Part shown: positions 1,133 through 51,586 of the stretch, piece by piece | Numbering within the stretch: position 1 is the first letter of the stretch | Layout of the letters: each line of letters opens with the position of its first letter | IMG/VR virus record: IMGVR_UViG_3300003316_000080 | Span: 1 to 64,000 of that record | DNA from: a virus | Strand: one strand, 5' to 3' | DNA length: 64,000 bases | The notes under the pieces: model-generated | Told to the model about the DNA's origin: nothing | Databases searched by the model: none | Seen by the model: the letters and a program-made list of their open reading frames with translations, nothing else | Made by a program: the position numbers and the translations under genes

Positions 1133-1840
1133 TTAGCCACGACGCCCGCCCAGTTGACGCGCCACCATGACAGCAAGGCCAGAGCGCAGATAGCCGGGGA
1201 ATGCAGCATCGAACAGTGATGCCACATTAGCCTGACACGTCGACAACAGCTTTGCTCCCAGTGGCACTTCCATGCGACGGCTGATGCGCCGCGCATGTGC
1301 AACCACCAGTTCAGCCAACAGGTGATATACGGACACTCGTGTTGTGACTGGTTGCTCCAGCAACTTGCTTTGCTTCATGAAGTCGAGCACTGGAGTGAAG
1401 ACCGCACCAGAGGCCGCAGTACGCTTCATCGTGTGCACCGAGCCACCCGCCCCCACCGAGCCTCCGAGAGTGTCGTGTAGGGCCTTGTGTAGCGCCACAG
1501 CCCACATGTCCGAATCACGAGCCGGTGCAGCTTCGTTGACTTCGAGACTTAGCTGAGCAAGCAGCTGCTTTTTCTGGTCGAGGCTCAGACGATTTATGTT
1601 GGTCGAGTCTTCATCATCTTCAACAACCAAAACATGTCGAGCAGTTTTGTGTTGTGTTGATTTATGTAGACCCTGTCCGGGGTAATCACCACACCCACCC
1701 CCCTCCCCTAAAGGGAGGGGTGGGGTGGTGTGTGTTGTTCCCTGGCGCTTTTTTTGAGAAGTGCCAGACGACACTGAAGCACTCGCCACTGGTGGATAGT
1801 GGCGAACTGGCCTTGTCAGAGAAACCTTGCTACGCGCCAT
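1133..1840 (-). CDS. hypothetical protein; start uncertain
   Basis: ORF track; ATG at 1838-1840 with GAGG upstream, but ORF contains GC-rich palindrome 1687-1734; C-terminal two thirds protein-like. Confidence 0.35.
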   Translation of the reverse strand: MARSKVSLTRPVRHYPPVASASVSSGTSQKKRQGTTHTTPPLPLGEGGGCGDYPGQGLHKSTQHKTARHVLVVEDDEDSTNINRLSLDQKKQLLAQLSLEVNEAAPARDSDMWAVALHKALHDTLGGSVGAGGSVHTMKRTAASGAVFTPVLDFMKQSKLLEQPVTTRVSVYHLLAELVVAHARRISRRMEVPLGAKLLSTCQANVASLFDAAFPGYLRSGLAVMVARQLGGRRG

Positions 1841-11640: not shown

Positions 11641-14274
11641 ATGTCGTTTTTCTTCGCAGAGACAAAGCGCGCCAAGAAGACAGGCGCTCCGTCGAAGAAG
11701 GCCGTGATCCCCATCGCAAGCCTGCAGCGTGCCGGCTGCACTGTATGTCCGCGCAAGGCAGACTGGGACGACGGCATCAAGACGCCACAGATGAAACCGG
11801 CCGGCCATCAGTCGCCGACGGTGTATCTGCTAGGCACGGCCCCGTCTGAGAAGGAAGACCGACTGGACGAGCCCTTTGTGTCCACAGCCTATGAAGAGGT
11901 GCTGTCGAAGTTGCCGGCGTCTCTGAGGCGGTATAGCCGCGTCGGCTATCTGACGCAGTGCAAGGCCGCCAGTAAAAACTTGATGCTGGAGATGTCGCCG
12001 GACCACGCGGAGATCGAGTGCTGCCGTCCTCGCGTGATCGCAGACATCGAAGAGACGAAGCCGATTGTCGTGATCGGCATCGGCGACAAAGCGCTTAATT
12101 GGGCCCTCCCCTTCTCATCGGGCGTCACCTCGATCACGCATCGAGGCACCTTGTTTCCGGTGAAGTTCGGGACGCACACGTGCTGGTTTTACAGCGTCAT
12201 GTTCCCGGCATATGTGCACCGAGAAAAGCGCAAGTATCCGACTGAGTACGAGATCGCGCTGACGCACGACCTACGCAATCTCGCTAAGTTGATCAACAAC
12301 GAAGAGATTGGTGTTCCGAAGATCTACGCAGACAAGTGGGAAGAGGGTATCGAGATCGTGACAGGTCACGATGCCGGAGACTTCCAGCGTGTGGAGCGCG
12401 CACTTGCAGACATGGCAGCGCTGCCCGATGTCGCACTCGACATCGAAACCAATGGCCTGCGGCCCTGGCACTTGAACAAGCCCAGGTTGTGGACTGCCGC
12501 AGTAGGCACATTCGAGCGTGTGATCGCCTTCCCGATTGATCATCCTGACGGCTGGGGCGCTGACGCGCGCATCCGCAAGATGCACGGTCTGTTCGCTGAG
12601 TGGCTGTGGCAATCGCGCCGGAAGTGGGCACATAACCTTGCAATGGAACTGGAGTGGTTTAACTGGTTCTACAGTCCGCACGCGATCATGGGCAATGAGT
12701 GGGGCGACACGATGGCCCTTGCCCATGTACTCGACGAGCGCAAGGGCACGAAGTCATTGGAGGTGCAGACGATCATTGGCGCCGGCTTCAACCTGAAGTC
12801 CATGAGTCCAGTTGATCCGTCGTTGCCTGACTGGATCAGTAAGTACCCGATTAAGACGGTGCTGAAGTACAACGGTGGAGACTCGAAATGGACGGACTTC
12901 CGTCGCCGCCAGCTGCAGCCGATCGTGGAGGCCGACGAAAAGCTCCATGACGTCTATCAGCACAAGATTCGAATGGCGCCGGCTTTGATCCTCACAGAGG
13001 CCAAGGGCCTACCGGTGTCTGTGCCGCGTGCTGAGAAGATGAATCGCGCACTGACGGAGCAACTGCACAAGATTGAAGACAAGCTGCGGGCTGATGTGGC
13101 TGTGCGCCGCCATACAACGCAGTTCGGCCAGTTCAGCCCGACGAACTCCGATCATGTGCTCGCGCTGATGGAAAAGACCCTCAAGCGCGATGAGATCTAC
13201 ATCATTGAGAAAGACGGGTCTGAGTCGAAGTCAGTCGCTGAAGAAGTGCTGGCGCTGATGCCTGAAGATGAGGTGCCATCAGCGAAGTTGATCCTGGAGC
13301 ACCGGGGCATCTCCAAGCTGAAGTCGACGTATCTGGAGCCAGTGATCAAGGGCACGATGATCAGCGTCGATGGCTATGTGCACTCGAAGTACAGCAGTCT
13401 GTTCGCCGCGACCCACCGCCTGAACTCTGAAGATCCCAACGCGCAGAACTGGCCTAAGCGCAAGCACAAGGAAGTTCGCTCGATCTTCTACGCGGAAGAT
13501 GATGAAGAGATTCTGGCGTGCGACTACGGCCAGATCGAGTTCCGCGTCGTGGGCATGTGCTCGGAGGACGACAACCTGTGCCGGGCCGTGTGGACCGGGT
13601 ACGACGTGCACTTGCACTGGGCAGAGCGGATCGTCGCCCTGTATCCCAAGATCAAGGACTGGATCAGATCAGAGTTCGAGGTGGACTGGGATGAGAAGGG
13701 CATCAAGACGCTGCGCCAGGAGGCCAAGAACAAGTGGGTGTTTCCGCAGTTCTTCGGTGCCTCGATCAAGTCGTGTGCAGCCTCTCTGCACTTGCCTGAA
13801 GAGGTCGCGCAGGATCTGGCTGATGAACTATGGGATGAGTTCCGAGGCGTCAAGCGCTGGCAAGACAAGTTGATGGAGTCGTTTGCGCGCAAGCTCTACG
13901 TGGAGACGCTGGACGGTGCGCGCCGTCGTGGGCCCATGACCAAAAACGAGATCATCAACATGCCGATCCAGGGCACAGCGGCCCGCATCGTGCAGACCGC
14001 GCATGCAGCTTTGGCTGAACGCGGCTTCATCATGGATCGCGGCGTGTATATCCCATCGCTGAACGTACATGATGACCTCTCAACCTGGAGCAAGAAGGCA
14101 GAGCGGGAGGCCAACGTGAAGATCATCGTCGAAGAGATGTGCAAGCACCGATTTGACTGGATCAACGTGCCGCTGCTGGTGGAAGTGTCGGCCGGGCCTG
14201 ACTGGTCCGACCTGACCGAGATCGGCAAGTACAGCAGCCATGAGCTGTTCAACATCAGGAACCCTTACCAATGA
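11641..14274 (+). CDS. polA: family-A DNA polymerase with N-terminal UDG-like (family 4) domain and 3'-5' exonuclease domain
   Basis: Exo I LDIETNGL; motif A DYGQIEFRV; motif C VHDDL; N-terminus YLLGTAPSEKEDRLDEPFV with Cys cluster resembles Fe-S UDG. Confidence 0.85.
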   Translation: MSFFFAETKRAKKTGAPSKKAVIPIASLQRAGCTVCPRKADWDDGIKTPQMKPAGHQSPTVYLLGTAPSEKEDRLDEPFVSTAYEEVLSKLPASLRRYSRVGYLTQCKAASKNLMLEMSPDHAEIECCRPRVIADIEETKPIVVIGIGDKALNWALPFSSGVTSITHRGTLFPVKFGTHTCWFYSVMFPAYVHREKRKYPTEYEIALTHDLRNLAKLINNEEIGVPKIYADKWEEGIEIVTGHDAGDFQRVERALADMAALPDVALDIETNGLRPWHLNKPRLWTAAVGTFERVIAFPIDHPDGWGADARIRKMHGLFAEWLWQSRRKWAHNLAMELEWFNWFYSPHAIMGNEWGDTMALAHVLDERKGTKSLEVQTIIGAGFNLKSMSPVDPSLPDWISKYPIKTVLKYNGGDSKWTDFRRRQLQPIVEADEKLHDVYQHKIRMAPALILTEAKGLPVSVPRAEKMNRALTEQLHKIEDKLRADVAVRRHTTQFGQFSPTNSDHVLALMEKTLKRDEIYIIEKDGSESKSVAEEVLALMPEDEVPSAKLILEHRGISKLKSTYLEPVIKGTMISVDGYVHSKYSSLFAATHRLNSEDPNAQNWPKRKHKEVRSIFYAEDDEEILACDYGQIEFRVVGMCSEDDNLCRAVWTGYDVHLHWAERIVALYPKIKDWIRSEFEVDWDEKGIKTLRQEAKNKWVFPQFFGASIKSCAASLHLPEEVAQDLADELWDEFRGVKRWQDKLMESFARKLYVETLDGARRRGPMTKNEIINMPIQGTAARIVQTAHAALAERGFIMDRGVYIPSLNVHDDLSTWSKKAEREANVKIIVEEMCKHRFDWINVPLLVEVSAGPDWSDLTEIGKYSSHELFNIRNPYQ

Positions 14275-24133: not shown

Positions 24134-24363
24134 AGATCACTGACGTGTCCAACAAGAAGACAGTGGTGTGTGGCTTCACATGCTGGCATTGCCGCCGCGT
24201 GGTGTTATCTGGTGGCGCCGCTGAAGTCGTCGAGATCTCGATCAAGTTGCGGCCGGGCGCTGACAGACGTGAGCGTGCAAACCGCCTGAGAATGGCCCGT
24301 GCTGAACTGCGCCATGCCCTTGCTATATTCCGCGCCAACAAAGAACTTGAGGACCTCGCATGA
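24130..24363 (+). CDS. hypothetical small Cys-containing protein
   Basis: GTG start overlapping upstream stop; VVCGFTCWHC. Confidence 0.35.
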   Translation: MKITDVSNKKTVVCGFTCWHCRRVVLSGGAAEVVEISIKLRPGADRRERANRLRMARAELRHALAIFRANKELEDLA

Positions 24364-26852
24364 GTGTGCGTTGTGTTGACTGCCTTGTGGGCCTGCGCCA
24401 GCTTCCAGATGCATCCGTTGATGCCATCGTCACGGATCCGCCCTACGGCCTGAGCGAGCAGAAGCCAGCGGAACTCGCTGCTTGCATCGCTGCATGGCTG
24501 GCCGGCGAGGTCTACCAGCCGAAGGGCAAGGGCTTCATGGGCAAGTCCTGGGACGCCTGGGTGCCTGGGCCCGAAGTCTGGCGCGAGTGCTTCCGCGTTC
24601 TCAAGCCGGGCGGACACATCCTGGCCTTCGCCGGCACGCGCACGCAGCACTTGATGGCGCTGTCGATGGCCCTGGCTGGATTCGAAATCAGGGACATGAT
24701 CGCCTGGGTGTATGGCTCCGGGTTTCCGAAGTCGCTGGACGTGTCGAAGGCGGTCGACAAGGCAGGCGGAGCCTCGCCCGTCGAGCAGGCTGAACTGCTG
24801 CGCCGCAAGCGCGTGGCGGCCGGCCTGACGCGAGAGCAGGTCGCGGAACACTGCGGGTGCACTCCATCGAGCGTTCGAGACTGGGAAGAAGGCCGAGCGC
24901 GCGCCGTCGGTGCCGCCGTTGAGTTCATCGTCCCGAGCGACGAGTACCGCACCAAGCTGGCCGACTTGCTCGGTTACAGCGTGGACGAGCGCAAGCTGAT
25001 TGGAACCTCGGCTGACCGGCGCGGCGATGGCACCGTCTACGGGGTGGGCCACAGCGGAGAGTTGCGCGCTGGCGGCAACACCGACGCTGCCCGCCAGTGG
25101 GAAGGCTGGGGCACCGCCCTGAAGCCGGCCCTTGAAACGGTTACTTTCGCTTCAAAGCCGTATACCGAAGAGCAGGAACGGAGTATAATTCAATCGAACC
25201 TAATTCGATTGGAGGCCCGTTTATGGTTGCTGTCGTCTGCGAGTGCTGCGGAAAAGAGTTCAACGTCAAGCCAAAGCGAGTACGGCGCGGCGTGCGCTAT
25301 TGCTCAATGGAGTGCCGACGAAATCACCAGTACACGGGCCGCTTTGTGCGGTCAGATGGATACGTCGCTGTTCGAGTGGGCAGCGACTACCAGCTTGAGC
25401 ATCGTGTCGTCATGGAGGCGCACATTGGTCGAAAGCTGGAGCGATGGGAGCACGTCCACCACCGAAACGAAGTCAAACACGACAACCGACTCGAGAACCT
25501 TGAAATTCTCACTGTCGCAGATCACGCCGAGCACCATCATCAAGGCCTGCAGCCTTCCCGGTGGGTTCAATGCGAATGCCTCCACTGCGGAAAGCCACTT
25601 CAACGCCTCGCTGTTGTTGTTGCAAAGCATCCGCACACTTTCTGCGACCGAGCCTGCTATATCGCAGGCGCAGCACGAACACCTGGGCGCGGGCGTAAAG
25701 CCGAACCTTGATCCATGCATCATGGCGCGCAAGCCGCTGGTCGGAACGGTCGCGGCCAACGTTCTGGAGCACGGGACGGGGGCGCTGAATATCGACGGGT
25801 GCCGCGTGGGCGATGAGGAGCGGGTGAACGGCGCCGGATCTGTGACCTCGCTTCAGCGTCAATCACGGGTCGCGGCGGGATACCGCGATGATGCTGGCGT
25901 TGGCCCAGGCTCTGACGCGAAGACCGTTGTTGGCCGTTGGCCCGCCAACCTGATCCACGACGGCAGCGACGAGGTGCTGGCGGCGTTCCCGAACGCGCCT
26001 GGTCAACTCGCGACGGCGAGCACCAGCGACACGCAGCGCTCCGGACAGAACACCTACGGTGCGATGACCCGTGGCAGCACGGGACAAGAACCGCGCGACG
26101 AGCTCGACAAGAGCGCCGCCCGATTTTTCAAGGAGTGTGCATGGGACGAACCTCGATCTGTTGCGAGCACTGCCGCGCAGCCTTTGTGCCTGCAAAACCA
26201 AGTCGCCGATTCTGTTCAGAGCGCTGCAGCAACTTGGGCCAGCCTCGCGGGAATACTCTCAAACGATTCGAAGGAACGTTCTATGAACGTAACTCCGATC
26301 GAGTCAAGAGCGATCGCAGAAACCGTTATCACTGCGACGACGAGTATCGCAAGCGGGTTCTCGCTCGAGTCGCAGCACGAAAGGCTCACCCCGTGCCGCA
26401 GCCTTGTGAAGACTGTGGTGCGCCGAACGCCGATCGGCATCACGACGATTACGACAAGCCTCTCTCGATCCGATGGAAGTGCCGGAGCTGCCACGTTCAC
26501 CATCACGCCGACGAGCTTGGATCGTGGGGATCTGGGCTCGCGGTTTGAGTACTGCGCCAAGGCTAGCAAGAAGGATCGCGGCGAGGGTAACAACCACCCT
26601 ACTGTCAAGCCGACCGCGCTGATGCGGTATCTCGTCCGCCTTGTTACCCCTCCGGGTGGCACTGTACTTGATCCTTACACGGGCTCTGGTTCAACAGGAG
26701 TGGCCGCGCAAGCGGAAGGCTTCAAGTTCATCGGATTTGAGAATGACCCTGCTTCTTGTGCGATTGCAAACAGGCGAATGGGACTCACGGGCCTGCTTGC
26801 TGTGAACAAAGAGCGCCGCCAGCTGCGTCTTCGCAAGCAGTTGATTGAGTGA
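24360..26852 (+). CDS. N6-adenine/N4-cytosine DNA methyltransferase (DPPY...FxGxG order), interrupted by two HNH cassettes; 830-aa open frame
   Basis: N-terminal AIVTDPPYG, VLKPGG; C-terminal HPTVKPTALMRYLVRLVTPPGGTVLDPYTGSGSTG; intervening frame is S/T-rich. Confidence 0.65.
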   Translation: MSVRCVDCLVGLRQLPDASVDAIVTDPPYGLSEQKPAELAACIAAWLAGEVYQPKGKGFMGKSWDAWVPGPEVWRECFRVLKPGGHILAFAGTRTQHLMALSMALAGFEIRDMIAWVYGSGFPKSLDVSKAVDKAGGASPVEQAELLRRKRVAAGLTREQVAEHCGCTPSSVRDWEEGRARAVGAAVEFIVPSDEYRTKLADLLGYSVDERKLIGTSADRRGDGTVYGVGHSGELRAGGNTDAARQWEGWGTALKPALETVTFASKPYTEEQERSIIQSNLIRLEARLWLLSSASAAEKSSTSSQSEYGAACAIAQWSADEITSTRAALCGQMDTSLFEWAATTSLSIVSSWRRTLVESWSDGSTSTTETKSNTTTDSRTLKFSLSQITPSTIIKACSLPGGFNANASTAESHFNASLLLLQSIRTLSATEPAISQAQHEHLGAGVKPNLDPCIMARKPLVGTVAANVLEHGTGALNIDGCRVGDEERVNGAGSVTSLQRQSRVAAGYRDDAGVGPGSDAKTVVGRWPANLIHDGSDEVLAAFPNAPGQLATASTSDTQRSGQNTYGAMTRGSTGQEPRDELDKSAARFFKECAWDEPRSVASTAAQPLCLQNQVADSVQSAAATWASLAGILSNDSKERSMNVTPIESRAIAETVITATTSIASGFSLESQHERLTPCRSLVKTVVRRTPIGITTITTSLSRSDGSAGAATFTITPTSLDRGDLGSRFEYCAKASKKDRGEGNNHPTVKPTALMRYLVRLVTPPGGTVLDPYTGSGSTGVAAQAEGFKFIGFENDPASCAIANRRMGLTGLLAVNKERRQLRLRKQLIE
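25137..25712 (+). mobile_element. 576-bp HNH endonuclease cassette inserted in MTase, flanked by ~42-bp imperfect direct repeats
   Basis: flanks 25119-25160 and 25695-25736 (AAGCCGGCCCTTGAA vs AAGCCGAACCTTGAT); AT-rich leader with TATAAT 25184-25189 and hairpin 25191-25211. Confidence 0.6.
25223..25711 (+). CDS. HNH homing endonuclease (HNH_3-like)
   Basis: ATG 25223 with GGAGG SD; DGYVAVRVG...YQLEHRVVMEAH...HHRNEVKHDNRLENLEILT; different frame from MTase. Confidence 0.8.
   Translation: MVAVVCECCGKEFNVKPKRVRRGVRYCSMECRRNHQYTGRFVRSDGYVAVRVGSDYQLEHRVVMEAHIGRKLERWEHVHHRNEVKHDNRLENLEILTVADHAEHHHQGLQPSRWVQCECLHCGKPLQRLAVVVAKHPHTFCDRACYIAGAARTPGRGRKAEP
26130..26548 (+). mobile_element. second HNH endonuclease cassette inserted in MTase
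   Basis: flanked by degenerate copies of MTase RFF(Y)CAKAS segment (SAARFFKECAW upstream, GSRFEYCAKAS downstream). Confidence 0.5.
26141..26548 (+). CDS. HNH endonuclease (small, zinc-ribbon N-terminus)
   Basis: ATG 26141 with AAGGAG 5 nt upstream; CEDCGAPNADRHHDDYDKPLSIRWKCRSCHVHHH. Confidence 0.7.
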   Translation: MGRTSICCEHCRAAFVPAKPSRRFCSERCSNLGQPRGNTLKRFEGTFYERNSDRVKSDRRNRYHCDDEYRKRVLARVAARKAHPVPQPCEDCGAPNADRHHDDYDKPLSIRWKCRSCHVHHHADELGSWGSGLAV

Positions 26853-30983: not shown

Positions 30984-31403
30984 ATGGACGAAAAACGCAA
31001 ACGTGGTCGGCCGGCTGGAGCAATGAACAAGCTCAGTCAGGAGGCTGTCAACCTCGCAAAGCAGACAGGTAAGTTGCCCCATGAGATCTTGCTAGAGATC
31101 GCACGGGGCAATCCCATTTGTGTGCTGAGTATGGAAGAAGGCGTTCTGAAGCCTGTCTATGTCATGACAGATCCTGCACAGGTGCTTGATGCAGCAAAGG
31201 CAGCAGCACCGTACTTCGCGCCGAAGATTTCTACAGTTGAAGTGATTGCAGGGGTATCTGACCATGAACTTGATCGCATCATTGCGCTCGCTGCCGCCGA
31301 AGCAGGCATTAGCCTTGGCGCTAGCGGAGAAGGCGAAGAGACAGAGGAAGAGGAACCAACTGAGCGAAGCAGCCGAAAGGGCCGTAGACAGCTACGCGAG
31401 TGA
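30984..31403 (+). CDS. putative terminase small subunit
   Basis: position directly upstream of terL; N-terminal basic KRKRGRPAG; 3' end overlaps terL by ~158 nt, so true end uncertain. Confidence 0.4.
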   Translation: MDEKRKRGRPAGAMNKLSQEAVNLAKQTGKLPHEILLEIARGNPICVLSMEEGVLKPVYVMTDPAQVLDAAKAAAPYFAPKISTVEVIAGVSDHELDRIIALAAAEAGISLGASGEGEETEEEEPTERSSRKGRRQLRE

Positions 31404-33111
31404 AGCAGAGGGGCCTCCTGTCCCTCTGCAGGTTTCCTCAGTCGTACTAGACGACACGCACGTAATCAGCCAACTGCTTACAACAGGCAAGTTGTGTGCG
31501 GGTCCGTCTGCACAGCACATCCGCTACAAGATCTACTGGGGCGGTCGTGGTGCTGTGAAGTCGTGGGGCATGGCAGAAGCACTAGTACGTCTGGCAGCTG
31601 CCAAGCCTCTACGCATACTGTGCTGCCGTGAGTTTCAGAACTCGATCAAGGACAGTGCACACAAACTGCTGAAAGACACGATCGAGAGACTTGGTCTGTC
31701 TACGTGGTTCACTGTCACTGCCGACAGCATCAAGTCTCGTGTCGGTGCAGAGTTCATGTTCAAAGGCCTGCACAACAACGAGAACGGCATCAGGTCGACT
31801 GAAGGCGTAGATATCTGCTGGGTGGAAGAAGCACACAGCGTTACTGCACTTAGCTGGCAGAGCCTACTGCCCACGATCCGTGGTGACGAGTCAGAGATCT
31901 GGATCTCGTTCAACATGGTCGAAGAGAGTGATGCTACGTACCAGATGTTCGTAGCAAATGAACGCCCTCACTCGATCGTTCACCACATCAATTACGACAG
32001 CAATCCGTTCCTACCGAAAGTGCTCCGTGATGAAATGGAGCACGACAAGAAGACGGACTACGCGCTGTACGAGCACATCTGGCTGGGCAAGCCTCGCAAG
32101 CGTAGTAACGCAATCGTCCTCAACGGCAAGTACCGCATTGAGGAATTCCCAGATGATCTGTACGAACACGCAGATAGGTTGTTCTTCGGTGCTGACTGGG
32201 GCTATGCAGAAGATCCGTCCACGCTGGTGCGTTGCTTCATCCTGAACAACAAGCTGTACATCGAGTACGAGGCATACGGCAAGCACATCGAACTGAACGA
32301 CTACGCTGCGTTCTATGACCAAGTGCCCGGGTCACGTGACTGGCCTATCTATGCCGACAGCGCGTTGCCAGCAACGATCTCGCATGTGCGCGGTCTGGGC
32401 TTTGCGATCGATGCGGCAGAGAAGTGGCCGGGCAGTGTCGAAGACGGCATCAAGCATCTGCGGGGGTACGACGAGATCATCATTCACCCGCGCTGCAAGA
32501 TGGCGGCCGACGAGGCTTACAAGTGGCGGTACAAGGTCGACAAGAAGGTGCTGGATGCCAACATGCAGCCACTCGTACTGCCCACGCTGGTAGACGCACA
32601 CAATCACTGCATTCCGGCTGGCGTGCTTGTGTCTACTGCGTGTGGCGATGTGCCTATTGAGCAAGTACAAGTAGGCGACCTCGTGTGGACGCGTGTTGGT
32701 CTGCGTCCTGTGTTGTGGGCAGGTGCCACAGACACGAACCGTGAAGTGCTGGAGATCACGTTGTCATCTGGTCATGTAGTGCGCTGCACTCCTGACCACG
32801 AAGTCTTCGTGAATGGTGAGTTCATTCGTGCAGACGCTGCTCAGGTGTCTGACAACATGAACACACTCGACAGCACGGCACATGGCAGGCGAATTGGCAC
32901 TGCGTCTGTAGTCTCTATCACTCGCATCGCGGAAAAGGCTGATGTTGTCTATGACGTAACGGTCGATGGACAACACGAGTTCTTCGCGAATGGTGTGCTG
33001 GTTCACAACTGCTGGGACGCGGTCCGGTACGCCCTACATGGCTACATCCCCAGATCGGGTGAGATGGGCGTGTGGAACAGACTAGGCGCCCAAGCTCTGG
33101 GACAATCCTGA
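31246..33111 (+). CDS. terL: terminase large subunit carrying a 134-aa mini-intein
   Basis: Walker A GGRGAVKSWG, Walker B DICWVEEAH; intein between DAHNH and CWDAV; exact start uncertain. Confidence 0.8.
   Translation: MQGYLTMNLIASLRSLPPKQALALALAEKAKRQRKRNQLSEAAERAVDSYASEAEGPPVPLQVSSVVLDDTHVISQLLTTGKLCAGPSAQHIRYKIYWGGRGAVKSWGMAEALVRLAAAKPLRILCCREFQNSIKDSAHKLLKDTIERLGLSTWFTVTADSIKSRVGAEFMFKGLHNNENGIRSTEGVDICWVEEAHSVTALSWQSLLPTIRGDESEIWISFNMVEESDATYQMFVANERPHSIVHHINYDSNPFLPKVLRDEMEHDKKTDYALYEHIWLGKPRKRSNAIVLNGKYRIEEFPDDLYEHADRLFFGADWGYAEDPSTLVRCFILNNKLYIEYEAYGKHIELNDYAAFYDQVPGSRDWPIYADSALPATISHVRGLGFAIDAAEKWPGSVEDGIKHLRGYDEIIIHPRCKMAADEAYKWRYKVDKKVLDANMQPLVLPTLVDAHNHCIPAGVLVSTACGDVPIEQVQVGDLVWTRVGLRPVLWAGATDTNREVLEITLSSGHVVRCTPDHEVFVNGEFIRADAAQVSDNMNTLDSTAHGRRIGTASVVSITRIAEKADVVYDVTVDGQHEFFANGVLVHNCWDAVRYALHGYIPRSGEMGVWNRLGAQALGQS
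32608..33009 (+). mobile_element. mini-intein (Hint domain, no endonuclease domain) within terL
   Basis: starts with Cys (CIPAGVLV), block B TPDH, ends VYDVTVDGQHEFFANGVLVHN followed by +1 Cys; 402 nt in frame. Confidence 0.8.
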
Positions 33112-33136: not shown

Positions 33137-35374
33137 ATGCCACGTGTCTTGACACCATCGCCTCTCACCGCCGAACTGCGTGCGGCAGGGTTTCCATGGG
33201 CAGATGATTCCGGTGTACTGCGCGCTGCCGATGGCACTGTCATCAGTAGCGGTGGGGGTGCGTCGACCTTCACTGCGCTGACGGATAGTGCGAGTGCAGA
33301 CATTCCTGCCACCAATGCACCGACAGCAGCAGCACTCGCTCTGAAGGCTAGTCTGGTGAATGGCGGTGTACCGACATCGCAACTGCCGCGATCCACTGCA
33401 GCCGTGACGCTCTCTGCAACGACGAGTGCAACTCCCACAGACGGCACCTTTGCTGCGCTGCCGGCGCAGGCGTGTACGGAACTGGAGGTATTCAACGACA
33501 GCCAAGTGCCCGTCGAGTACCGCCGTAATGGCGCCGGCAACGTCGTCACACTCCTGGCGAATCAGCGTCGCCGCATCCTCGGCATCACCGACGCCAGCCA
33601 GATCGCATTCCGGCGCTCTGACTACGCAGTGGCCGGCCGGACGCAGCCGACGACGATCTCTGTCCGTGCTCGCACGAACACGGACACGTACACGCTTGCC
33701 GGCACGCTGTCGATGGTGCTCAGTGGTGGTTCGTACACGGCGTTTAGCAGCCTCGCGTGTACGTCCATGGAGATCTTCAACAACTGCAACCACGACATCC
33801 TCTTCACGATCGACAGCGGCACGGCGTACAAGCTGCGTCACGGTGAGTCGGCTGTGATTCTGGGCATCGCCAACGCCAACCAAGTGCGTGTCAAGACCTA
33901 TGATTCGATCGCTCGTCAATCTCGCAATCTCGAGGCCGAGTGCTGGACGGTAGGTCTGGGTCGGGAGACGCTGAGTCCGTACCGTGCAGACGCCATCACG
34001 GCTGAAGCCGACATTCTCAACGGCGAGCCCAACTATCCGAACCTTCAGCCAATCGGCGCGGTCCTGACGCTGGGCAACCTGCGTCCTGTGCCGCGTCTGC
34101 GCAAGAAGCCGGTGGAGTTGGCGAAGTGGGATCTGGCGGCCAATGTGGTCACCAACCGTGCGGCTGACTTCGCTGACATCACACCGGCCGCTGTGGGCAA
34201 GGACGAGATTACCTTCGGCACCACGATCGTCGAGTACACGCAGTCTCAGACGGCGGAAGTACTGATCGCTCCTGCTGGTGTGCAGTCCACACCGGTCGAC
34301 GTCTCCAATGGCTCGATCCACTTCACGCATGTGTGGCCGGACAACGCCGGCAACAACTACGGCGTGAACGGGCCTTCCAGCTTCATCATCGAACTGCACA
34401 GCGCGGGCTCGCCGTCAGCGCCCACGGCCAACTACCACACCAGTGGCGTACTGAACTCGCTGAATGCGGGCTTCATGGGCGCGTCCACGCTGGGCTATAA
34501 CCTGCAGCGCTGCTTCTCTCTGCCGATCAACGCATTCACTGCGGCTGGCACGGGTGCTACGCTGACGGCGATCACCTGGGCCCGCATTCGCATCACGGGC
34601 CCGTCGGCGTCCAACGGCTGCAAGTTGCGCCCTGTCCGCCTCGACTTCGTGCCCAACGCGTTGACGAAGGGGACGGTGATCTTCACCTTCGACGACCTGC
34701 ACGCGGGCGCCTGGACCAACGCGCTGCCGATCATGTCGAAGTACTCGTACCCGGGCGTCCTGTGCATGGACACCACGGTCAAGATGGGCCAGTCAGGCTT
34801 CCTGACACCCGAGCAGATCATTCAGATGCACCAGACGTACGGCTGGGAGGTCGGCTATCAGGTCTATCAGAACGAAACGGGGTTCAACCTCAACTCCGAA
34901 TCCTGGATGCGCCAGGTCGGCAAGTGGGTGCTGGAGATGAACCGTCTGGGCATCCACGAGACGTACAACGGCTCGTACGGCTCGGGCACTGTGACGAACG
35001 TCGACGAAGAACGGCTGATGGCTGCTCGCCGTGCACTGTCGACGATGCGTCGCTTCACCAGTGGCACGAACACGTCCCCGCCCTTCAAGAACCCGGAGAC
35101 GGTGCCCTACGGCGACCCGTACAACCTGCGGTGCCTCAACATGAGCAGTGGCTTCACGGCCGGCACGATCTACGATCGCTGGAAGGATCACGTCGATCAG
35201 GCCGTTGCTGCAAAGGGCGTGGCGATCTTCGCGTGTCACAGTGAATTCAACGGCGCCGGTGAAGCGCTGACGGCACTCGGTACGCTCTGCGCGTACATCC
35301 GCACGCTGGAACTGGCCGGCAACTGCCAAGTGACCACCTTCGCCGGTCTGAACAAGCAGGCTTACGGGGTCTGA
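33137..35374 (+). CDS. large (745 aa) putative virion/host-interaction protein with beta-rich repeats and C-terminal polysaccharide-deacetylase-like region
   Basis: AAGGGGA SD; two internal repeats (ACTELEVFND..., ACTSMEIFNN...); C-terminal TFDDLHAG...PYG resembles NodB/CE4 motifs weakly. Confidence 0.5.
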   Translation: MPRVLTPSPLTAELRAAGFPWADDSGVLRAADGTVISSGGGASTFTALTDSASADIPATNAPTAAALALKASLVNGGVPTSQLPRSTAAVTLSATTSATPTDGTFAALPAQACTELEVFNDSQVPVEYRRNGAGNVVTLLANQRRRILGITDASQIAFRRSDYAVAGRTQPTTISVRARTNTDTYTLAGTLSMVLSGGSYTAFSSLACTSMEIFNNCNHDILFTIDSGTAYKLRHGESAVILGIANANQVRVKTYDSIARQSRNLEAECWTVGLGRETLSPYRADAITAEADILNGEPNYPNLQPIGAVLTLGNLRPVPRLRKKPVELAKWDLAANVVTNRAADFADITPAAVGKDEITFGTTIVEYTQSQTAEVLIAPAGVQSTPVDVSNGSIHFTHVWPDNAGNNYGVNGPSSFIIELHSAGSPSAPTANYHTSGVLNSLNAGFMGASTLGYNLQRCFSLPINAFTAAGTGATLTAITWARIRITGPSASNGCKLRPVRLDFVPNALTKGTVIFTFDDLHAGAWTNALPIMSKYSYPGVLCMDTTVKMGQSGFLTPEQIIQMHQTYGWEVGYQVYQNETGFNLNSESWMRQVGKWVLEMNRLGIHETYNGSYGSGTVTNVDEERLMAARRALSTMRRFTSGTNTSPPFKNPETVPYGDPYNLRCLNMSSGFTAGTIYDRWKDHVDQAVAAKGVAIFACHSEFNGAGEALTALGTLCAYIRTLELAGNCQVTTFAGLNKQAYGV

Positions 35375-47457: not shown

Positions 47458-48963
47458 ATGGCAACCACGCCCGTTCAATTACCGCTGTCTCGTCTGATCA
47501 ACGTCGCTGTTGTTCTGACCGCAGCAGCTGCTCAAGCGCAGAACCTGTCGACCCTGCTCATCCTGGGCACGTCATCTGTGATCGACACCGTGACGCGCCA
47601 GCGCGATTACGAATCCCTCACCGATGTCGGCGCCGATTTCGGCAGCAGCGCACCTGAATATCTGGCCGCCCAGATCTACTTCGCGCAGTCGCCTCAGCCC
47701 ACCACGCTGAAGATCGGCCGCTGGTTCCTGACGGCCGCTGCGGGCTCGCTGGTGGGTAAGACACTGAGCGCGGCTGAACAGACACTGGCGAACTTCACTG
47801 CCGTGACCTCGGGTGGTTTCACCTACACCAAGAACGGCGGCGCTCCGACCAACGTGACGGGCATCAATCTGTCCACGGCAACCAACCTCAACGCGGTTGC
47901 CTCGCTGATCACGGCGGCGCTCACGGGTGCCACGATGGTCTGGAATGCGCAGTACCAGCGCTTCGAACTGACTTCGGCCGCCACCGGCGCGACTTCAGCG
48001 ATCAGCTTTCTGACGGCGCCGGGCTCTGGCACCGACATCAGTGCACTGCTGGGCATGACGGCCGCATCGTCGGGTGCCTACCAAGCGCCCGGTGCTGACG
48101 CAGAAACGCCGATCGCCGCAGTAACGTTGTTCGAGCAGAACTGGGGCCAGACGTGGTACGGCCTGCAGATGCTGGGTATCAGCGGTGGCGGCGCAACTGC
48201 TGACCATCTCGCTGTCGCTCAGTTCATCGAAGGCACGAACACGAAGCACGTGTACGGCATCACGACTCAGGATGCAGCGGCCCTCGTGCAGGGCAACACC
48301 ACCAACGTCGGTGCGGTCATGAAGGCCAACGGCCTAGACAAGACGATGGTGCGCTATTCGTCGAAGTCGCCGTATGCGGTCGCAACTGACTTCGGCCGCA
48401 TGCTGACGGTGAATTACAACGGCGAAAACACCGTCATCACGATGATGTACAAGCAGACGCCGGGGCTGGAGGCTGAGGCCATCAACAGCACGCAGGCGAA
48501 CGCGCTGCAGTCCAACAACATCAACGTGTCGGCGGGCTACTCGAACGGCACCGCAATCACGCAGTACGGCGTCATGTCGTCGGGTGAATACATCGACACG
48601 ATCTTTGGCATCGACTGGCTCGCGGTGACCGTGCAGACGAATCTGTACAACGCCCTGTACACGACGACCACGAAGATCCCCCAGACCGACGCCGGTCAGA
48701 ACCTCCTGAACACCAAGGTGGAAGAGGTCTGCCAACAGGGTGTGACCAACGGTCTGCTGGCACCGGGCGTGTGGAACGCAACAGGCTTCGGCACGCTGAA
48801 GCAAGGCGACTACATGGAGAAGGGCTACTACGTGTACAGCGCTCCGATGCGCACGCAGAACCAGTCCGATAGGCAAGCACGCAAGTCGATGCCGATCCAG
48901 GCCGCTGCCAAGCTCGCTGGTGCGATCCACACGGTGCAACTGACCGTTACCGTCAACCAGTAA
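47458..48963 (+). CDS. contractile tail sheath protein
   Basis: 501 aa immediately upstream of tube and frameshifted chaperone genes. Confidence 0.6.
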   Translation: MATTPVQLPLSRLINVAVVLTAAAAQAQNLSTLLILGTSSVIDTVTRQRDYESLTDVGADFGSSAPEYLAAQIYFAQSPQPTTLKIGRWFLTAAAGSLVGKTLSAAEQTLANFTAVTSGGFTYTKNGGAPTNVTGINLSTATNLNAVASLITAALTGATMVWNAQYQRFELTSAATGATSAISFLTAPGSGTDISALLGMTAASSGAYQAPGADAETPIAAVTLFEQNWGQTWYGLQMLGISGGGATADHLAVAQFIEGTNTKHVYGITTQDAAALVQGNTTNVGAVMKANGLDKTMVRYSSKSPYAVATDFGRMLTVNYNGENTVITMMYKQTPGLEAEAINSTQANALQSNNINVSAGYSNGTAITQYGVMSSGEYIDTIFGIDWLAVTVQTNLYNALYTTTTKIPQTDAGQNLLNTKVEEVCQQGVTNGLLAPGVWNATGFGTLKQGDYMEKGYYVYSAPMRTQNQSDRQARKSMPIQAAAKLAGAIHTVQLTVTVNQ

Positions 48964-48989: not shown

Positions 48990-49433
48990 ATGGCTGCAAA
49001 AACCTACTCGTTCGCGGATGTGGTTGCCGCGCTGTCGGGCCCCGGTGGCTTGATCAACGTCGGCGCCGGCGCGGGCCCGTCGAAGGAAGGTGTGACCGTC
49101 ACCCCGGGCGCGGACGCCAACATCATGCAGATCGGCGCTGACGGCGGCGGCCAGCACAGCATGACGTCCGATTTCTCCGGCACGATCACGATCCGTCTTC
49201 TGAAGACGTCGCCTACTAACGCACTGCTGGCGGCGATGCTGAGCTTCCAGCGCGCGTCGGCGGCCAACTGGGGTCAGAACACCTTCAGCCTCGCGGACAA
49301 GAACCGCAACGACATCGTGACGGCCTCGCAAGTCGCTTTCAAGAAGTGGCCTGACCTGACCTTCGCGGAAGAAGCCGGCGTCAACGAATGGGTGTTCGAC
49401 GCCGTGCGTATCTCGATGGCACTCGGCGCCTGA
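48990..49433 (+). CDS. tail tube protein
   Basis: 147 aa between sheath and chaperone genes. Confidence 0.55.
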   Translation: MAAKTYSFADVVAALSGPGGLINVGAGAGPSKEGVTVTPGADANIMQIGADGGGQHSMTSDFSGTITIRLLKTSPTNALLAAMLSFQRASAANWGQNTFSLADKNRNDIVTASQVAFKKWPDLTFAEEAGVNEWVFDAVRISMALGA

Positions 49434-49468
49434 TCCACCTCCCCTTCTCTCCCTGTCAAAGCAAAATC

Positions 49469-49954
49469 ATGAGCAACATCGTAGAAGTCCAAGGTCAGAG
49501 GTACTCCATCGGAAGACTCGACGTGTTTGTGCAGATGCACATTGCACGTCGAGTCGGTACCGTCATCAACGAGATCGAAGCGGCCAAGTACGAGATGTAC
49601 CAAGACGGCACGCTGGCAGAACTGATCGAAGGCGAAGATCCGGTGCTGAGGGCCTCGCGAATCATGCATGGCATGGTAAAGGCAGGCTGGCGCGCAATGG
49701 GCGCCATGGCACAAGATGACGCCGACTACGTGATGTTCGAGTGCCTGAAGGTCGTCCAGCGCGAGCAGCAAGGTGGCGACTGGGCCAAGGTCGTCACGGG
49801 CAAGCAAGCACTTTTCGCGGACATGACGGGACAGGTGCTGATGCGTCTGGTCGTCGAAGTCTGCAAGGAGAATCTGGCCGATTTTTTTCCTTTGCTGAGC
49901 GGCATGCAAGATTCCTCGGAGAGTGCCGACACATCGTCGGCGACGGGGGCGTGA
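49469..49954 (+). CDS. tail assembly chaperone (short product)
   Basis: position upstream of tape measure; slippery run near 3' end. Confidence 0.6.
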   Translation: MSNIVEVQGQRYSIGRLDVFVQMHIARRVGTVINEIEAAKYEMYQDGTLAELIEGEDPVLRASRIMHGMVKAGWRAMGAMAQDDADYVMFECLKVVQREQQGGDWAKVVTGKQALFADMTGQVLMRLVVEVCKENLADFFPLLSGMQDSSESADTSSATGA

Positions 49955-50139
49955 CGCTCATAGGGCTGGAAGGAGGTGAGCAGTTCCTTCTCCAGCCCGT
50001 GCACGCAGGGATGTGCACATATCTGGATCTGAAGAACGGTTCTCTGTCCCTCTATGACGTGGCTCTGCTCAATGAGTACCTGGAAATGGAGGCAGAGAAC
50101 AGAGCCCGCCTAGAAGCGGCACGACCAACAAGGAGTTGA
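49469..50139 (+). CDS. tail assembly chaperone, -1 frameshift-extended product
   Basis: -1 shift at T7 run 49882-49888 joins frame of ORF 49741..50139, which ends 2 nt before tape-measure ATG. Confidence 0.5.
49882..49888 (+). promoter_or_regulatory. programmed -1 ribosomal frameshift slippery heptamer T-TTT-TTT
   Basis: GAT TTT TTT CCT in zero frame; -1 frame open for 83 codons with protein-like sequence. Confidence 0.5.
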
Positions 50140-50140
50140 C

Positions 50141-51586
50141 ATGGCAGCTGGTTCCTCTGAAGTCCTGCGCGAGTATCTGATTCGTCTGGGCTTCCAGATC
50201 GACCAGCGCGGCCAACGCAACTTCGACACGGCAACGGTCAACATCCAGAAACGCGTGATGGGAATCGCGCAGGCTGTGACCGCCGTGACGGGTGCTGCAA
50301 CCGCAATGGTTGTCTCGTACACCCGCGACATGGAGAAGATGTATTACGCCTCCCGTAAAGCGGAGGCGCCTGTCGCAGCGCTGAACAACCTCGCATACGG
50401 ATACCGTCAGATCGGACTGGATGGTAAACAGGCGATTGCCACAGTCGAAGGCATTGCACGCAGCATGCGCAGCAACCCGGGCTTGACGGCATTGCTGAAG
50501 GACCTGGGAGTGCCCGTGCAGGGCCGCACCAAAGATCAGGTACTGCTGGACCTCGTCGGTGCCTTGCGCAAGATGCCTGAGCACATCGCCATCCAGTACG
50601 GCAACCTGTTTGGGATCGACCCTGATCAGCTGAAACTTCTTACTGAAGGCTATGACAAGTTGCTGGCTGCTGAGAAGCAGCGCCAGATGATGACGCAGGG
50701 TCTGAACATCGATACAGAGGCAGCGGCAAAGGCTGCTGTCGAATATGCGAATGCACTCGACAAGGTGACGGAGCGCGCCAAGATCCTGTTTAGCGTCATT
50801 TCCGTTGGCATGCTGCCTTACTTCAAGCAGATGACGTCCAATCTGGACGAGATGCTGAAGAGCATGACACGCGTCGCTGCTTTTGCTCAAAAGGCCACGC
50901 CTGCTGAATTCTGGGCAGAGACGAAGAATCAGGCCCGGCTGCTGTGGGAGACGCTGTCGGGCAGTCGCGGCAGTGTGACGCTGAGCCCGCGAGCCCAGGC
51001 GCAGAAGGACACAGCAGGCTTGTCGGGCCTCCCCGCCCTCCCACCAGGGCCGCCAGCGCCAGCTGGCAATTTGCCCCTAGGCCTGCGGAACAACAATCCT
51101 GGCAACTTGCGCGCCGGCTTGGGTCAGACGGGCATGAACCGGGGGTTCGCAACTTTCGACACGCCGGAGCAGGGCCTTGCTGCAATGGCGCGGCAGCTAC
51201 TGCTGTACCAGAACCGCGACGGCCTCAAGAACATCTCGCAGATCATCAAGAAGTACGCACCGGCCAGCGAGAACAACACACAGGCATACATCGACGCAGT
51301 AACGAAGGCGACAGGCTTCAACTCTCAGGAGTACATTGACCTCAACGCGACAGGCAATCTGGCCGCGATCATGGAGGCCATGGTCAAGCACGAGAATGGG
51401 CGCAATCCGTTCTCGTCTGCCCAGTTTGAGACAGCGGCACGTCAGGGTGCCGCCTTCCAGCAGCAGACCAATATCACCGTCTATGGCGCCACAGACCCCA
51501 CAGCAACGGCAAATGCCATCGGCGGTCAGCAGCGCTCTGTCAACTCCGATCTGATGCGTCAGATGGGCACACGCAAGGTGGAATAA
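50141..51586 (+). CDS. tail tape measure protein (short) with C-terminal conserved LRNNNPGNLR region
   Basis: position after chaperone; helical N-terminus. Confidence 0.5.
   Translation: MAAGSSEVLREYLIRLGFQIDQRGQRNFDTATVNIQKRVMGIAQAVTAVTGAATAMVVSYTRDMEKMYYASRKAEAPVAALNNLAYGYRQIGLDGKQAIATVEGIARSMRSNPGLTALLKDLGVPVQGRTKDQVLLDLVGALRKMPEHIAIQYGNLFGIDPDQLKLLTEGYDKLLAAEKQRQMMTQGLNIDTEAAAKAAVEYANALDKVTERAKILFSVISVGMLPYFKQMTSNLDEMLKSMTRVAAFAQKATPAEFWAETKNQARLLWETLSGSRGSVTLSPRAQAQKDTAGLSGLPALPPGPPAPAGNLPLGLRNNNPGNLRAGLGQTGMNRGFATFDTPEQGLAAMARQLLLYQNRDGLKNISQIIKKYAPASENNTQAYIDAVTKATGFNSQEYIDLNATGNLAAIMEAMVKHENGRNPFSSAQFETAARQGAAFQQQTNITVYGATDPTATANAIGGQQRSVNSDLMRQMGTRKVE

What the first reader, a model, noticed from the sequence alone, without database searches (positions are those of the whole stretch)
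49882..49888. Programmed -1 frameshift site (T7 run) in the tail assembly chaperone gene
GAT TTT TTT CCT lies near the 3' end of the chaperone ORF. The -1 frame stays open from there to 50139, two nt before the tape-measure start, and encodes protein-like sequence. This matches the conserved G/GT-type frameshift of tailed phages.
Basis: partly seen in the sequence, partly recalled or inferred. Interest (0 to 1): 0.45.

Follow-up and report, generated by a model that had tools for sequence, protein, structure and literature searches.

The report
Tail chaperone frameshift site, confirmed
A run of seven T's near the end of a phage tail-assembly chaperone gene is very probably a real programmed -1 ribosomal frameshift site that makes a longer second protein, a well-known feature of tailed phages and therefore ordinary.

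Summary
The T7 run lies at 49882-49888 in frame as GAT TTT TTT CCT, 66 nt before the stop of a 161-aa tail assembly chaperone gene (49469..49954, Pfam Phage_TAC_15). The gene sits between the tail tube gene and the tape-measure gene. The -1 frame is open to TGA 50137-50139, next to the tape-measure ATG at 50141.

- **Coding extension.** The -1 extension matches Pfam DUF6889 (E=1e-15).
- **Frame geometry.** In 81 of 83 distinct related loci this domain lies in the -1 frame of the chaperone gene.
- **Slip site.** 74 of those 81 loci have a canonical X_XXY_YYZ heptamer at the homologous G-x-F codons, and 22 of them have T7 itself. All 81 have a shift-prone tetramer there.
- **No separate start.** 56 of 81 loci have no start codon from which the domain could be translated on its own.
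- **Close relative.** An 83%-identical relative keeps GATTTTTTTCCTTTGCTGA unchanged.
- **Precedent.** The same frameshift is already annotated in Burkholderia phage Magia.

The predicted products are 161 aa (frame 0) and 223 aa (fusion). No product was measured here. A GTG overlapping the chaperone stop leaves open a separately made 62-aa protein in this clade. This is a new member of a known kind, of low interest. One useful by-product is that DUF6889 and phrog_4364, both labelled "unknown function", are the frameshift-encoded chaperone extension.

The parts
49469..49954 (+). Tail assembly chaperone gene, frame 0, 161 aa (the 'G-like' product)
   Evidence: PF21822 Phage_TAC_15 at E=1.4e-14 and phrog_1688 at E=1.4e-20. 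The N-terminus aligns with relatives from ATG 49469. The longer 188-aa call from ATG 49388 overlaps the tube gene and looks like a gene-caller artefact.
49882..49888 (+). Slippery heptamer T_TTT_TTT (Phe139 in the P site, Phe140 in the A site)
   Evidence: The run is invariant in relatives L011 (99% aa) and L010 (83% aa), while the sequence just upstream has diverged. The same position carries TTTTTTT, CCCTTTT, AAATTTT, GGGAAAT or TTTTTTG in 74 of 81 relatives.
49888..50139 (+). -1 frame extension of 83 codons plus TGA. The predicted fusion is 140 + 83 = 223 aa
   Evidence: Differences from L010 past the frame-0 stop fall 6/4/15 on codon positions 1/2/3 of the -1 frame. The extension is 82% identical to L010 at the protein level, about the same as the chaperone part.
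49966..50001 (+). Conserved motif LEGGEQFLLQPV (family consensus LPGGEDWLLxPV) at the start of the conserved part of the extension
   Evidence: The motif lies upstream of ATG 50011, whose Met is M, I or L in relatives. ATG 50011 is therefore not the start of the conserved domain.
50014..50124 (+). DUF6889 domain (fusion residues 183-219), the 'T-like' domain
   Evidence: PF21829 at E=1.1e-15 and phrog_4364 at E=3.6e-16. All 32 diverse -1 peptides from relatives match PF21829.
49951..49954 (+). GTGA: a GTG in the -1 frame overlapping the frame-0 TGA stop. This is a possible coupled restart for a free 62-aa DUF6889 protein (the rival reading)
   Evidence: It is present in the window, L011 and L010. 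The gene caller used it in L011. 56 of 81 relatives have no start codon in this position range.
49865..49870 (+). Shine-Dalgarno-like AAGGAG, 11 nt 5' of the heptamer. It is a possible stimulator, weakly supported
   Evidence: Read directly from the sequence. It is not conserved in L010, which has AAGGCC. The spacing rule is recalled from dnaX and was not tested here.
50141..51586 (+). Tape measure protein gene (481 aa), the presumed client of the chaperone
   Evidence: phrog_2276 at E=2.1e-61, with further tape-measure PHROGs matching the N-terminal part.
48990..49433 (+). Tail tube protein gene, the presumed partner of the T-like domain (by analogy)
   Evidence: PF11681 at E=1.7e-42. The same family is named Phage_Tube_PhiTE.
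47458..48963 (+). Tail sheath gene, which shows that the tail is contractile
   Evidence: PF11863 at E=1.7e-134 and phrog_205 'tail sheath'.

Best explanation
This is a programmed -1 ribosomal frameshift in the tail assembly chaperone gene of a contractile-tailed phage. Most ribosomes read 49469..49954 and make a 161-aa chaperone. A minority slip when the two tRNA-Phe occupy UUU(139) in the P site and UUU(140) in the A site. Both slip back one base on U_UUU_UUU, where they re-pair with UUU UUU exactly as before. Translation continues at UCC 49888 in the -1 frame to UGA 50139, giving a 223-aa fusion of the chaperone domain, a 26-residue linker and a DUF6889 domain. By analogy with lambda gpG/gpGT and P2 gpE/gpE+E', both products bind the tape measure protein through the shared chaperone part. 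The extra C-terminal domain of the rarer fusion recruits the tube protein so that the tail polymerises around the tape measure at a fixed chaperone-to-fusion ratio. What is shown here: the site, the frames, the coding nature of the extension, and family-wide conservation of the site, the frame and the -1 domain. What is inferred: that ribosomes actually shift here, how efficiently, and what the extension binds.
For: The T7 run is in frame, and the -1 frame is open to 2 nt before the tape-measure ATG. The chaperone matches PF21822 and the extension matches PF21829 at E=1e-15. The tblastn search with the predicted fusion hit 16 phage genomes in two pieces, that is, in two frames. In 10 of 10 first loci the -1 frame is open across the chaperone stop and ends -8 to +10 nt from the tape-measure start. 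In the wider survey, 81 of 83 distinct loci have the domain in the -1 frame. The -1 frame is open from the site in 81 of 81, and in eight loci a -1-frame stop lies only 12-21 nt upstream, which pins the shift to this spot. 74 of 81 have canonical heptamers within 6 nt of the end of the chaperone-domain match, against 0.0019 per codon elsewhere in the gene, and 81 of 81 have a U_UUN or A_AAN tetramer there. The linker is 18-26 codons long throughout. 56 of 81 loci have no ATG, GTG or TTG from which the domain could start on its own. The 83%-identical relative keeps GATTTTTTTCCTTTGCTGA despite 18% divergence in the upstream gene. The rare codons GAT TTT TTT have P about 0.018. Two natural loci encode the predicted junction peptide in a single frame. 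U_UUU_UUU, C_CCU_UUU and A_AAU_UUU belong to the H_HH.U_UU.Y class, which is among the most efficient -1 motifs in E. coli, and UUUUUUU is otherwise avoided in genes (PMC4066793). Phage Magia is annotated with the frameshift, and its 752-nt join fits a -1 shift. The lambda and P2 mechanism is taken from PMC5009743.
Against: There are no protein or ribosome data for this phage or, as far as I found, for any member of this chaperone family. No downstream stimulatory RNA structure was found: z=-0.14 in the window, +0.09 in L010, and a family mean of -0.71. That is also true of lambda G-T. The upstream SD-like AAGGAG is not conserved in L010. In this clade a GTG overlaps the chaperone stop, so the domain could also be translated separately. 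GC3 in the post-stop region does not by itself favour the -1 frame (0.60 against 0.68 in frame 0). The frame call rests on the Pfam match and the substitution pattern.
Confidence: 0.88

Rival explanations
1. The DUF6889 domain is made as a separate small protein (62 aa, GTG 49951 to 50139) by termination-reinitiation at the GTGA overlap with the chaperone stop. On this reading the T7 run has no recoding role.
For: GTG 49951 overlaps TGA 49952-49954 in the window, L011 and L010. A gene caller annotated exactly this 62-aa ORF in L011, and similar small ORFs are annotated in BgManors32, vB_EpM_ZHS and yong1. phrog_4364 is built from such small ORFs.
Against: 56 of 81 relatives have no ATG, GTG or TTG upstream of the conserved domain in that frame, so the family as a whole cannot rely on separate initiation. 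There is no usable Shine-Dalgarno: GGGGG sits 1 nt from the GTG. This reading does not explain why the avoided T7 run with rare codons is conserved, why slippery heptamers sit at the homologous codons in 74 of 81 loci, or why the -1 frame is open from the site in 81 of 81. The GTG may be conserved simply because it overlaps the stop codon.
Confidence: 0.07
2. The fusion protein is produced by transcriptional slippage. RNA polymerase adds one extra U at the T7 run, and the U8 mRNA is then read normally into the -1 frame.
For: The site is a homopolymer. UUUUUUU is under-represented in all three frames of E. coli genes, possibly because of transcriptional slippage (PMC4066793). L012 shows that a T8 allele gives the in-frame fusion. 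The protein would be identical to the ribosomal-shift product.
Against: Most relatives use heteropolymeric heptamers at the same position (AAATTTT 25, GGGAAAT 24, CCCTTTT 20), on which polymerase slippage is not expected. From my own recollection, which I did not test here, efficient bacterial slippage needs runs of about 9 or more. The in-frame X_XXY_YYZ register is conserved, and a polymerase mechanism would not require that.
Confidence: 0.04
3. The T7 run is a chance feature or a sequencing artefact, and the region 49955-50139 is non-coding spacer.
For: No experimental data exist. Homopolymers are error-prone in some sequencing chemistries.
Against: T7 is present in three independent assemblies. 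The spacer matches a curated Pfam family at E=1e-15 and shows third-position substitution bias in the -1 frame. The architecture recurs in 81 other loci.
Confidence: 0.01

Closest known systems
Bacteriophage lambda gpG / gpGT (-1 frameshift at G_GGA_AAG; Levin, Hendrix and Casjens 1993; Xu, Hendrix and Duda 2004, 2013, 2014, as summarised in PMC5009743)
   Same: Two overlapping ORFs lie directly upstream of the tape-measure gene, and the second ORF is in the -1 frame. [quoted passage not shown] No strong RNA stimulator is present. The -1 ORF ends at the tape-measure start. The G_GGA_AAT used by many relatives nearly matches the lambda site.
   Different: There is no detectable sequence relationship: no lambda G or T Pfam family scored at E<=0.1. 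This phage has a contractile tail, whereas lambda's is non-contractile. The site here is T_TTT_TTT. The partner of the extension (tube protein) is assumed, not shown.
Bacteriophage P2 gpE / gpE+E' (myovirus tail chaperone frameshift; the site T_TTT_TTG is recalled from Christie et al. 2002; efficiency is 2-3 times that of lambda per PMC5009743)
   Same: It is a contractile-tail phage, the genes lie after sheath and tube and before the tape measure, and the slip site is a T run. T_TTT_TTG itself occurs in 18 relatives.
   Different: The protein families differ: no P2 GpE family match was found. The sheath is the DUF3383/E217_gp31 type and the tube is the KPP10_Orf10/PhiTE type, not P2 FI/FII.
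Burkholderia phage Magia CPT_Magia_015/016, 'tape measure chaperone' and its annotated frameshift product (MT701587; PMC7883833)
   Same: It has the same protein families (about 34-35% identity to the fusion in two frames), the same synteny, a slip site at the homologous G-x-F codons (C_CCT_TTT), and a -1 extension with the LPGGEDWLL/DUF6889 domain.
   Different: The heptamer differs, the chaperone has a longer insertion, and the phage is temperate and 45 kb, against about 64-66 kb here. The Magia frameshift is itself a bioinformatic annotation, not an experiment.

Membership tests
Conserved tail-assembly-chaperone -1 frameshift (lambda G/GT type, Xu et al. 2004) | Two ORFs between the major tail (tube) gene and the tape-measure gene | tested here: met
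   Tube 48990..49433, chaperone 49469..49954, -1 ORF to 50139, tape measure 50141..51586.
Conserved tail-assembly-chaperone -1 frameshift (lambda G/GT type, Xu et al. 2004) | The second ORF overlaps the 3' end of the first in the -1 frame, and relatives keep this arrangement | tested here: met
   Met in the window and in 81 of 83 distinct relatives.
Conserved tail-assembly-chaperone -1 frameshift (lambda G/GT type, Xu et al. 2004) | An in-frame X_XXY_YYZ slippery heptamer in the overlap, conserved in position | tested here: met
   T_TTT_TTT at 49882-49888. 74 of 81 relatives have a heptamer at the homologous codons, and 81 of 81 have a Z_ZZN tetramer.
Conserved tail-assembly-chaperone -1 frameshift (lambda G/GT type, Xu et al. 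2004) | The second ORF lacks its own translation start | tested here: inconclusive
   56 of 81 relatives have no start codon. The window clade has a GTG overlapping the stop, without a usable SD.
Conserved tail-assembly-chaperone -1 frameshift (lambda G/GT type, Xu et al. 2004) | Two protein products at a fixed ratio, both needed for tail assembly and both absent from virions | not testable with these tools
   This needs western blot or mass spectrometry, plus genetics.
Pfam PF21822 Phage_TAC_15 | Score above the curated gathering threshold | tested here: met
   55.2 bits against a cut-off of 22.
Pfam PF21829 DUF6889 | Score above the curated gathering threshold in the -1 frame translation | tested here: met
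   57.5 bits against a cut-off of 23.9. All 32 relatives' -1 peptides also match.
Lambda gpG / gpT or P2 gpE protein families (sequence membership) | A significant match to those Pfam, NCBIfam or PDB sequences | tested here: not met
   Only PF21822 and PF21829 matched at E<=0.1. NCBIfam gave no match. The PDB profile search gave nothing meaningful. The site works like G/GT but is not a sequence member of those families.
Stimulated -1 PRF (dnaX / IS911 type) | A conserved downstream hairpin or pseudoknot, or an upstream SD at 10-14 nt | tested here: not met
   Fold z-scores were -1.5, -0.14 and +0.09, with a family mean of -0.71. AAGGAG lies 11 nt upstream in the window only and is not in L010.

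The most novel reading that the evidence does not exclude
In this clade the T7 site and the GTGA stop-start overlap might both be used. The locus would then make three products: the 161-aa chaperone, the 223-aa fusion and a free 62-aa DUF6889 protein. Alternatively, part of the fusion might arise from RNA polymerase slippage on the T7 run, with T-run length (T7 or T8, as in L012) acting as a mutational switch between the two-product and fusion-only states.
Probability: 0.1. Interest if true: 0.4.

Novelty: new member of a known kind. Interest (0 to 1): 0.15.

Why it matters
The main value is for correct annotation. The locus should be annotated as one chaperone gene with a -1 frameshift product of 223 aa, not as a chaperone plus an unrelated 62-aa hypothetical protein, which is how automatic gene callers split it. 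The survey also gives a function to two database families labelled "unknown function". Pfam DUF6889 and phrog_4364 are the frameshift-encoded C-terminal extension of Phage_TAC_15 chaperones, in a lineage with at least 534 viral contigs. Nothing here challenges current understanding of tail assembly or recoding.

Tried and rejected
- **DNA search against phage genomes.** The distant-mode search with 49400-50200 found nothing.
- **Exact-peptide scans.** Scans of genome contigs and viral contigs with the single protein found no close relatives. The big protein database held only two close homologues.
- **Downstream stimulatory structure.** The 109-nt fold looked plausible, with a stem starting 7 nt after the heptamer (z=-1.5). 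Its outer stem is broken without compensation in L010. Shorter folds have z near 0, and the family mean z is -0.71. I rejected it as a conserved element.
- **ATG 50011 as the start of a stand-alone DUF6889 ORF.** Rejected, because conservation (LEGGEQFLLQPV) extends upstream and the Met is M, I or L in relatives.
- **+1 frame.** Closed after 27 codons.
- **GC3 by frame.** It does not discriminate the frames in the 185-nt post-stop region.
- **Other databases.** Rfam, tRNA, NCBIfam and PDB-sequence searches returned nothing relevant. A literature search for DUF6889 found no papers. The Bordetella phage paper calls the chaperone but does not mention a frameshift.
- **Not attempted.** I did not run structure prediction or a fold search. 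Only window sequences and two near-identical homologues could have been submitted, and the result would not change the verdict.

Full report
**1. Observation**

The sequence reads gatttttttc at 49880-49889, so the seven T's occupy 49882-49888.

The upstream ORF is best read from ATG 49469. The N-terminus MSNIVEVQGQRYSIG aligns with the N-termini of relatives. The longer reading from ATG 49388 overlaps the tube gene. In this frame the codons are GAT(138) TTT(139) TTT(140) CCT(141), and the ORF stops at TGA 49952-49954, giving 161 aa. The T run is therefore an in-frame X_XXY_YYZ heptamer, T_TTT_TTT, ending 66 nt before the end of the ORF.

The -1 frame is open from 49720 to TGA 50137-50139, and the next gene starts at ATG 50141. 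The +1 frame closes after 27 codons.

**2. Is it more than chance?**

- The window is 59% GC. It has two T7 runs and no A run of six or more.
- The other T7 (1749-1755) is non-coding and follows a GC-rich palindrome.
- In 27 confident genes, TTT is 22% of Phe codons and GAT is 35.5% of Asp codons. P(GAT TTT TTT | D-F-F) is therefore about 0.018. None of the 15 other Phe-Phe pairs is TTT-TTT.
- Sharma et al. report that UUUUUUU is notably under-represented in all frames of E. coli genes (PMC4066793).

**3. What the genes are**

| Coordinates | Identity | Evidence |
|---|---|---|
| 47458..48963 | Tail sheath | PF11863 (DUF3383), E=1.7e-134; phrog_205 |
| 48990..49433 | Tail tube | PF11681 |
| 49469..49954 | Tail assembly chaperone | PF21822 Phage_TAC_15, 55 bits vs cut-off 22; phrog_1688 |
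| 50141..51586 | Tape measure | phrog_2276, E=2e-61 |
| downstream | Dit-like, hub and spike genes | |

The window as a whole looks like a nearly complete phage genome. It has a family A DNA polymerase, a methylase, a large terminase, a portal, a capsid protein, a contractile tail and a tailspike. It has no tRNA genes and no Rfam matches. There is no promoter-like site and no + strand terminator between the chaperone and tape-measure genes.

**4. The -1 text is coding**

Translated as a fusion (140 aa of frame 0 plus 83 aa of frame -1, 223 aa in total), residues 183-219 match Pfam PF21829 DUF6889 at E=1.1e-15, and residues 172-219 match phrog_4364.

I compared the window with a relative whose chaperone is 83% identical (L010). 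The 185 nt after the frame-0 stop differ at 25 positions, distributed 6/4/15 over codon positions 1/2/3 of the -1 frame. The extension is 82% identical at the protein level, the same as the chaperone part.

**5. Conservation of the site at close range**

In the three-way alignment of the window, L011 (99% aa) and L010, GATTTTTTTCCTTTGCTGA is invariant. The 15 nt just upstream differ at six positions in L010.

**6. Conservation across the family**

A tblastn search with the fusion hit 16 phage genomes in two pieces, that is, in two frames. In the window and nine phage loci, the -1 frame is open across the chaperone stop in all ten. It ends -8 to +10 nt from the tape-measure start.

At the homologous codons (motif N-L-G-x-F) the DNA reads as follows:

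| Phage(s) | Site |
|---|---|
| Magia, BgManors32 | C_CCT_TTT |
| Bordetella IFTN9 | G_GGA_AAT |
| Ralstonia phage | G_GGT_TTT_TTC |
| Acinetobacter, Hafnia and E. coli phages | G_GGA_AAT_TTT(_TTG) |

An alignment-based scan of IMG/VR found 534 relatives, of which I fetched 80. I searched HMMs of the chaperone part and of the extension against stop-to-stop translations. This placed the extension in the -1 frame in 90 of 92 loci, or 81 of 83 distinct loci. Among the 81:

- **Heptamers.** 74 have a canonical heptamer in the shift window: AAATTTT 25, GGGAAAT 24, TTTTTTT 22, CCCTTTT 20, TTTTTTG 18.
- **Position.** These heptamers cluster 0-6 nt from the end of the chaperone-domain match. The background rate in the rest of the same genes is 18 in 9353 codons.
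- **The other seven.** They read (C/A/C)T TTT A. That is the U_UUU tetramer, one of the three most shift-prone tetramers in E. coli.
- **Frame openness.** All 81 keep the -1 frame open from the site. In eight loci a -1-frame stop lies only 12-21 nt upstream, which pins the shift to this spot.
- **Linker.** The linker from the site to the conserved LPGGEDWLLxPV motif is 18-26 codons long (26 in the window), while the frame-0 tail varies from 6 to 21 codons.
- **ORF end.** The -1 ORF ends -25 to +9 nt from the start of the next long ORF in 75 of 78 loci.
- **Domain identity.** All 32 diverse -1 peptides match PF21829.

**7. Independent initiation?**

56 of 81 loci have no ATG, GTG or TTG in the -1 frame between the site and the conserved domain. 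Among the named phages this group includes Magia, vB_PL1, the Ralstonia phage, Ab105-1phi and EcoM-683R1. In those phages the domain can only be made as a fusion.

The window's clade does have a GTG (49951) overlapping the TGA stop (GTGA). Its only SD-like feature is a G run 1 nt from the GTG. A coupled restart therefore cannot be excluded here by sequence alone. It does not explain the conserved T7 run, and it is not the family's general solution.

ATG 50011 lies inside the conserved region, and its Met is M, I or L in relatives.

**8. Natural fusions**

Two loci encode both domains in one frame.

- **L012** has T8 at the site. It reads ...SLGNFFSRTPRK..., the junction predicted for a -1 shift. 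The homologue of the short tail is then in another frame. This may be a real indel or a homopolymer sequencing error.
- **L042** has no T run and is a true in-frame fusion.

Either way, the fused polypeptide is a viable gene product in this family.

**9. Mechanism**

Both Phe codons are UUU, so after a one-base backward slip both tRNA-Phe re-pair with UUU as before.

U_UUU_UUU, C_CCU_UUU and A_AAU_UUU belong to the H_HH.U_UU.Y class, which Sharma et al. list among the most efficient -1 motifs in E. coli. U_UU.U_UU.U gave more than 0.1% shifting without any stimulator.

I found no conserved stimulator:

- Downstream folds have z=-1.5 (109 nt), -0.14 (window) and +0.09 (L010). The window and L010 fold differently, and the family mean z is -0.71.
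- An SD-like AAGGAG sits 11 nt upstream in the window but is absent from L010.

Transcriptional slippage on T7 would give the same protein. Most relatives, however, use heteropolymeric heptamers in a conserved codon register, which points to the ribosome.

**10. Comparison with known systems**

The arrangement works like lambda gpG/gpGT and P2 gpE/gpE+E'. In those systems the chaperone part binds the tape measure and the frameshift-encoded part recruits the tube subunit. The ratio of the two products is critical, and neither is present in virions (PMC5009743).

By sequence it is not a member of those protein families. Only PF21822 and PF21829 matched. NCBIfam and the PDB sequences gave nothing.

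Within its own family the frameshift has been recognised before. Burkholderia phage Magia carries an annotated "tape measure chaperone frameshift product", whose 752-nt join fits a -1 shift and my 250-aa prediction. Its genome paper states that a programmed translational frameshift was identified (PMC7883833). Most other relatives are annotated as a chaperone plus a small hypothetical protein, or with an apparent gap.

**11. Verdict**

It is a new member of a known kind and of low interest (0.15).

The residual uncertainty is experimental. No product has been seen, the efficiency is unknown, and the binding partners are inferred.

The useful by-product is that DUF6889 and phrog_4364 can be re-labelled as the frameshift extension of Phage_TAC_15 chaperones.

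Noticed in passing
window 31246-33111 (+): The large terminase carries an intein. Pfam Terminase_3 matches residues 93-282, and Intein_splicing/Hint/PT-HINT match residues 455-588. The next ORF, 33137..35374 (745 aa), has no Pfam match.
   Followed up: partly
window 11641-14274 (+): The family A DNA polymerase (877 aa) has an N-terminal uracil-DNA-glycosylase-superfamily domain at residues 57-202.
   Followed up: no
window 1692-1755: The only other T7 run in the window (1749-1755) is non-coding. It lies about 20 nt after a long GC-rich palindrome (cacccacccccctcccctaaagggaggggtggggtggtg). It may be a terminator between divergent genes, but the simple terminator scan did not call it.
   Followed up: partly
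L012:1820-1900 and L042:1750-1850: These are two natural in-frame chaperone-DUF6889 fusions. L012 has T8 at the slip site, with the homologue of the short tail now out of frame; this may be a real indel or a homopolymer error. L042 has no T run at all, so it may make only the fusion.
   Followed up: partly
window 49388-49954 and 49951-50139; L011:3001-3752: Automatic gene calls split the locus. They give a 188-aa chaperone from an upstream ATG that overlaps the tube gene, plus a separate 62-aa DUF6889 ORF. Pfam DUF6889 and phrog_4364 are labelled 'unknown function' but correspond to the frameshift extension: all 32 -1 peptides tested match.
   Followed up: yes
window 50141-51586 (+): The tape measure protein is short (481 aa). 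Its C-terminal third (residues 309-456) matches lysozyme/endolysin-type PHROGs (phrog_873, E=3.5e-43), which suggests a cell-wall-degrading domain delivered by the tape measure.
   Followed up: no
window 49865-49870 (+): A Shine-Dalgarno-like AAGGAG lies 11 nt upstream of the heptamer. From memory, that is the spacing that stimulates -1 shifting in dnaX. It is present in L011 but replaced by AAGGCC in L010.
   Followed up: partly
window 24360-26852 (+): An 830-aa protein combines helix-turn-helix domains (residues 144-211) with an N6/N4 DNA methylase domain.
   Followed up: no
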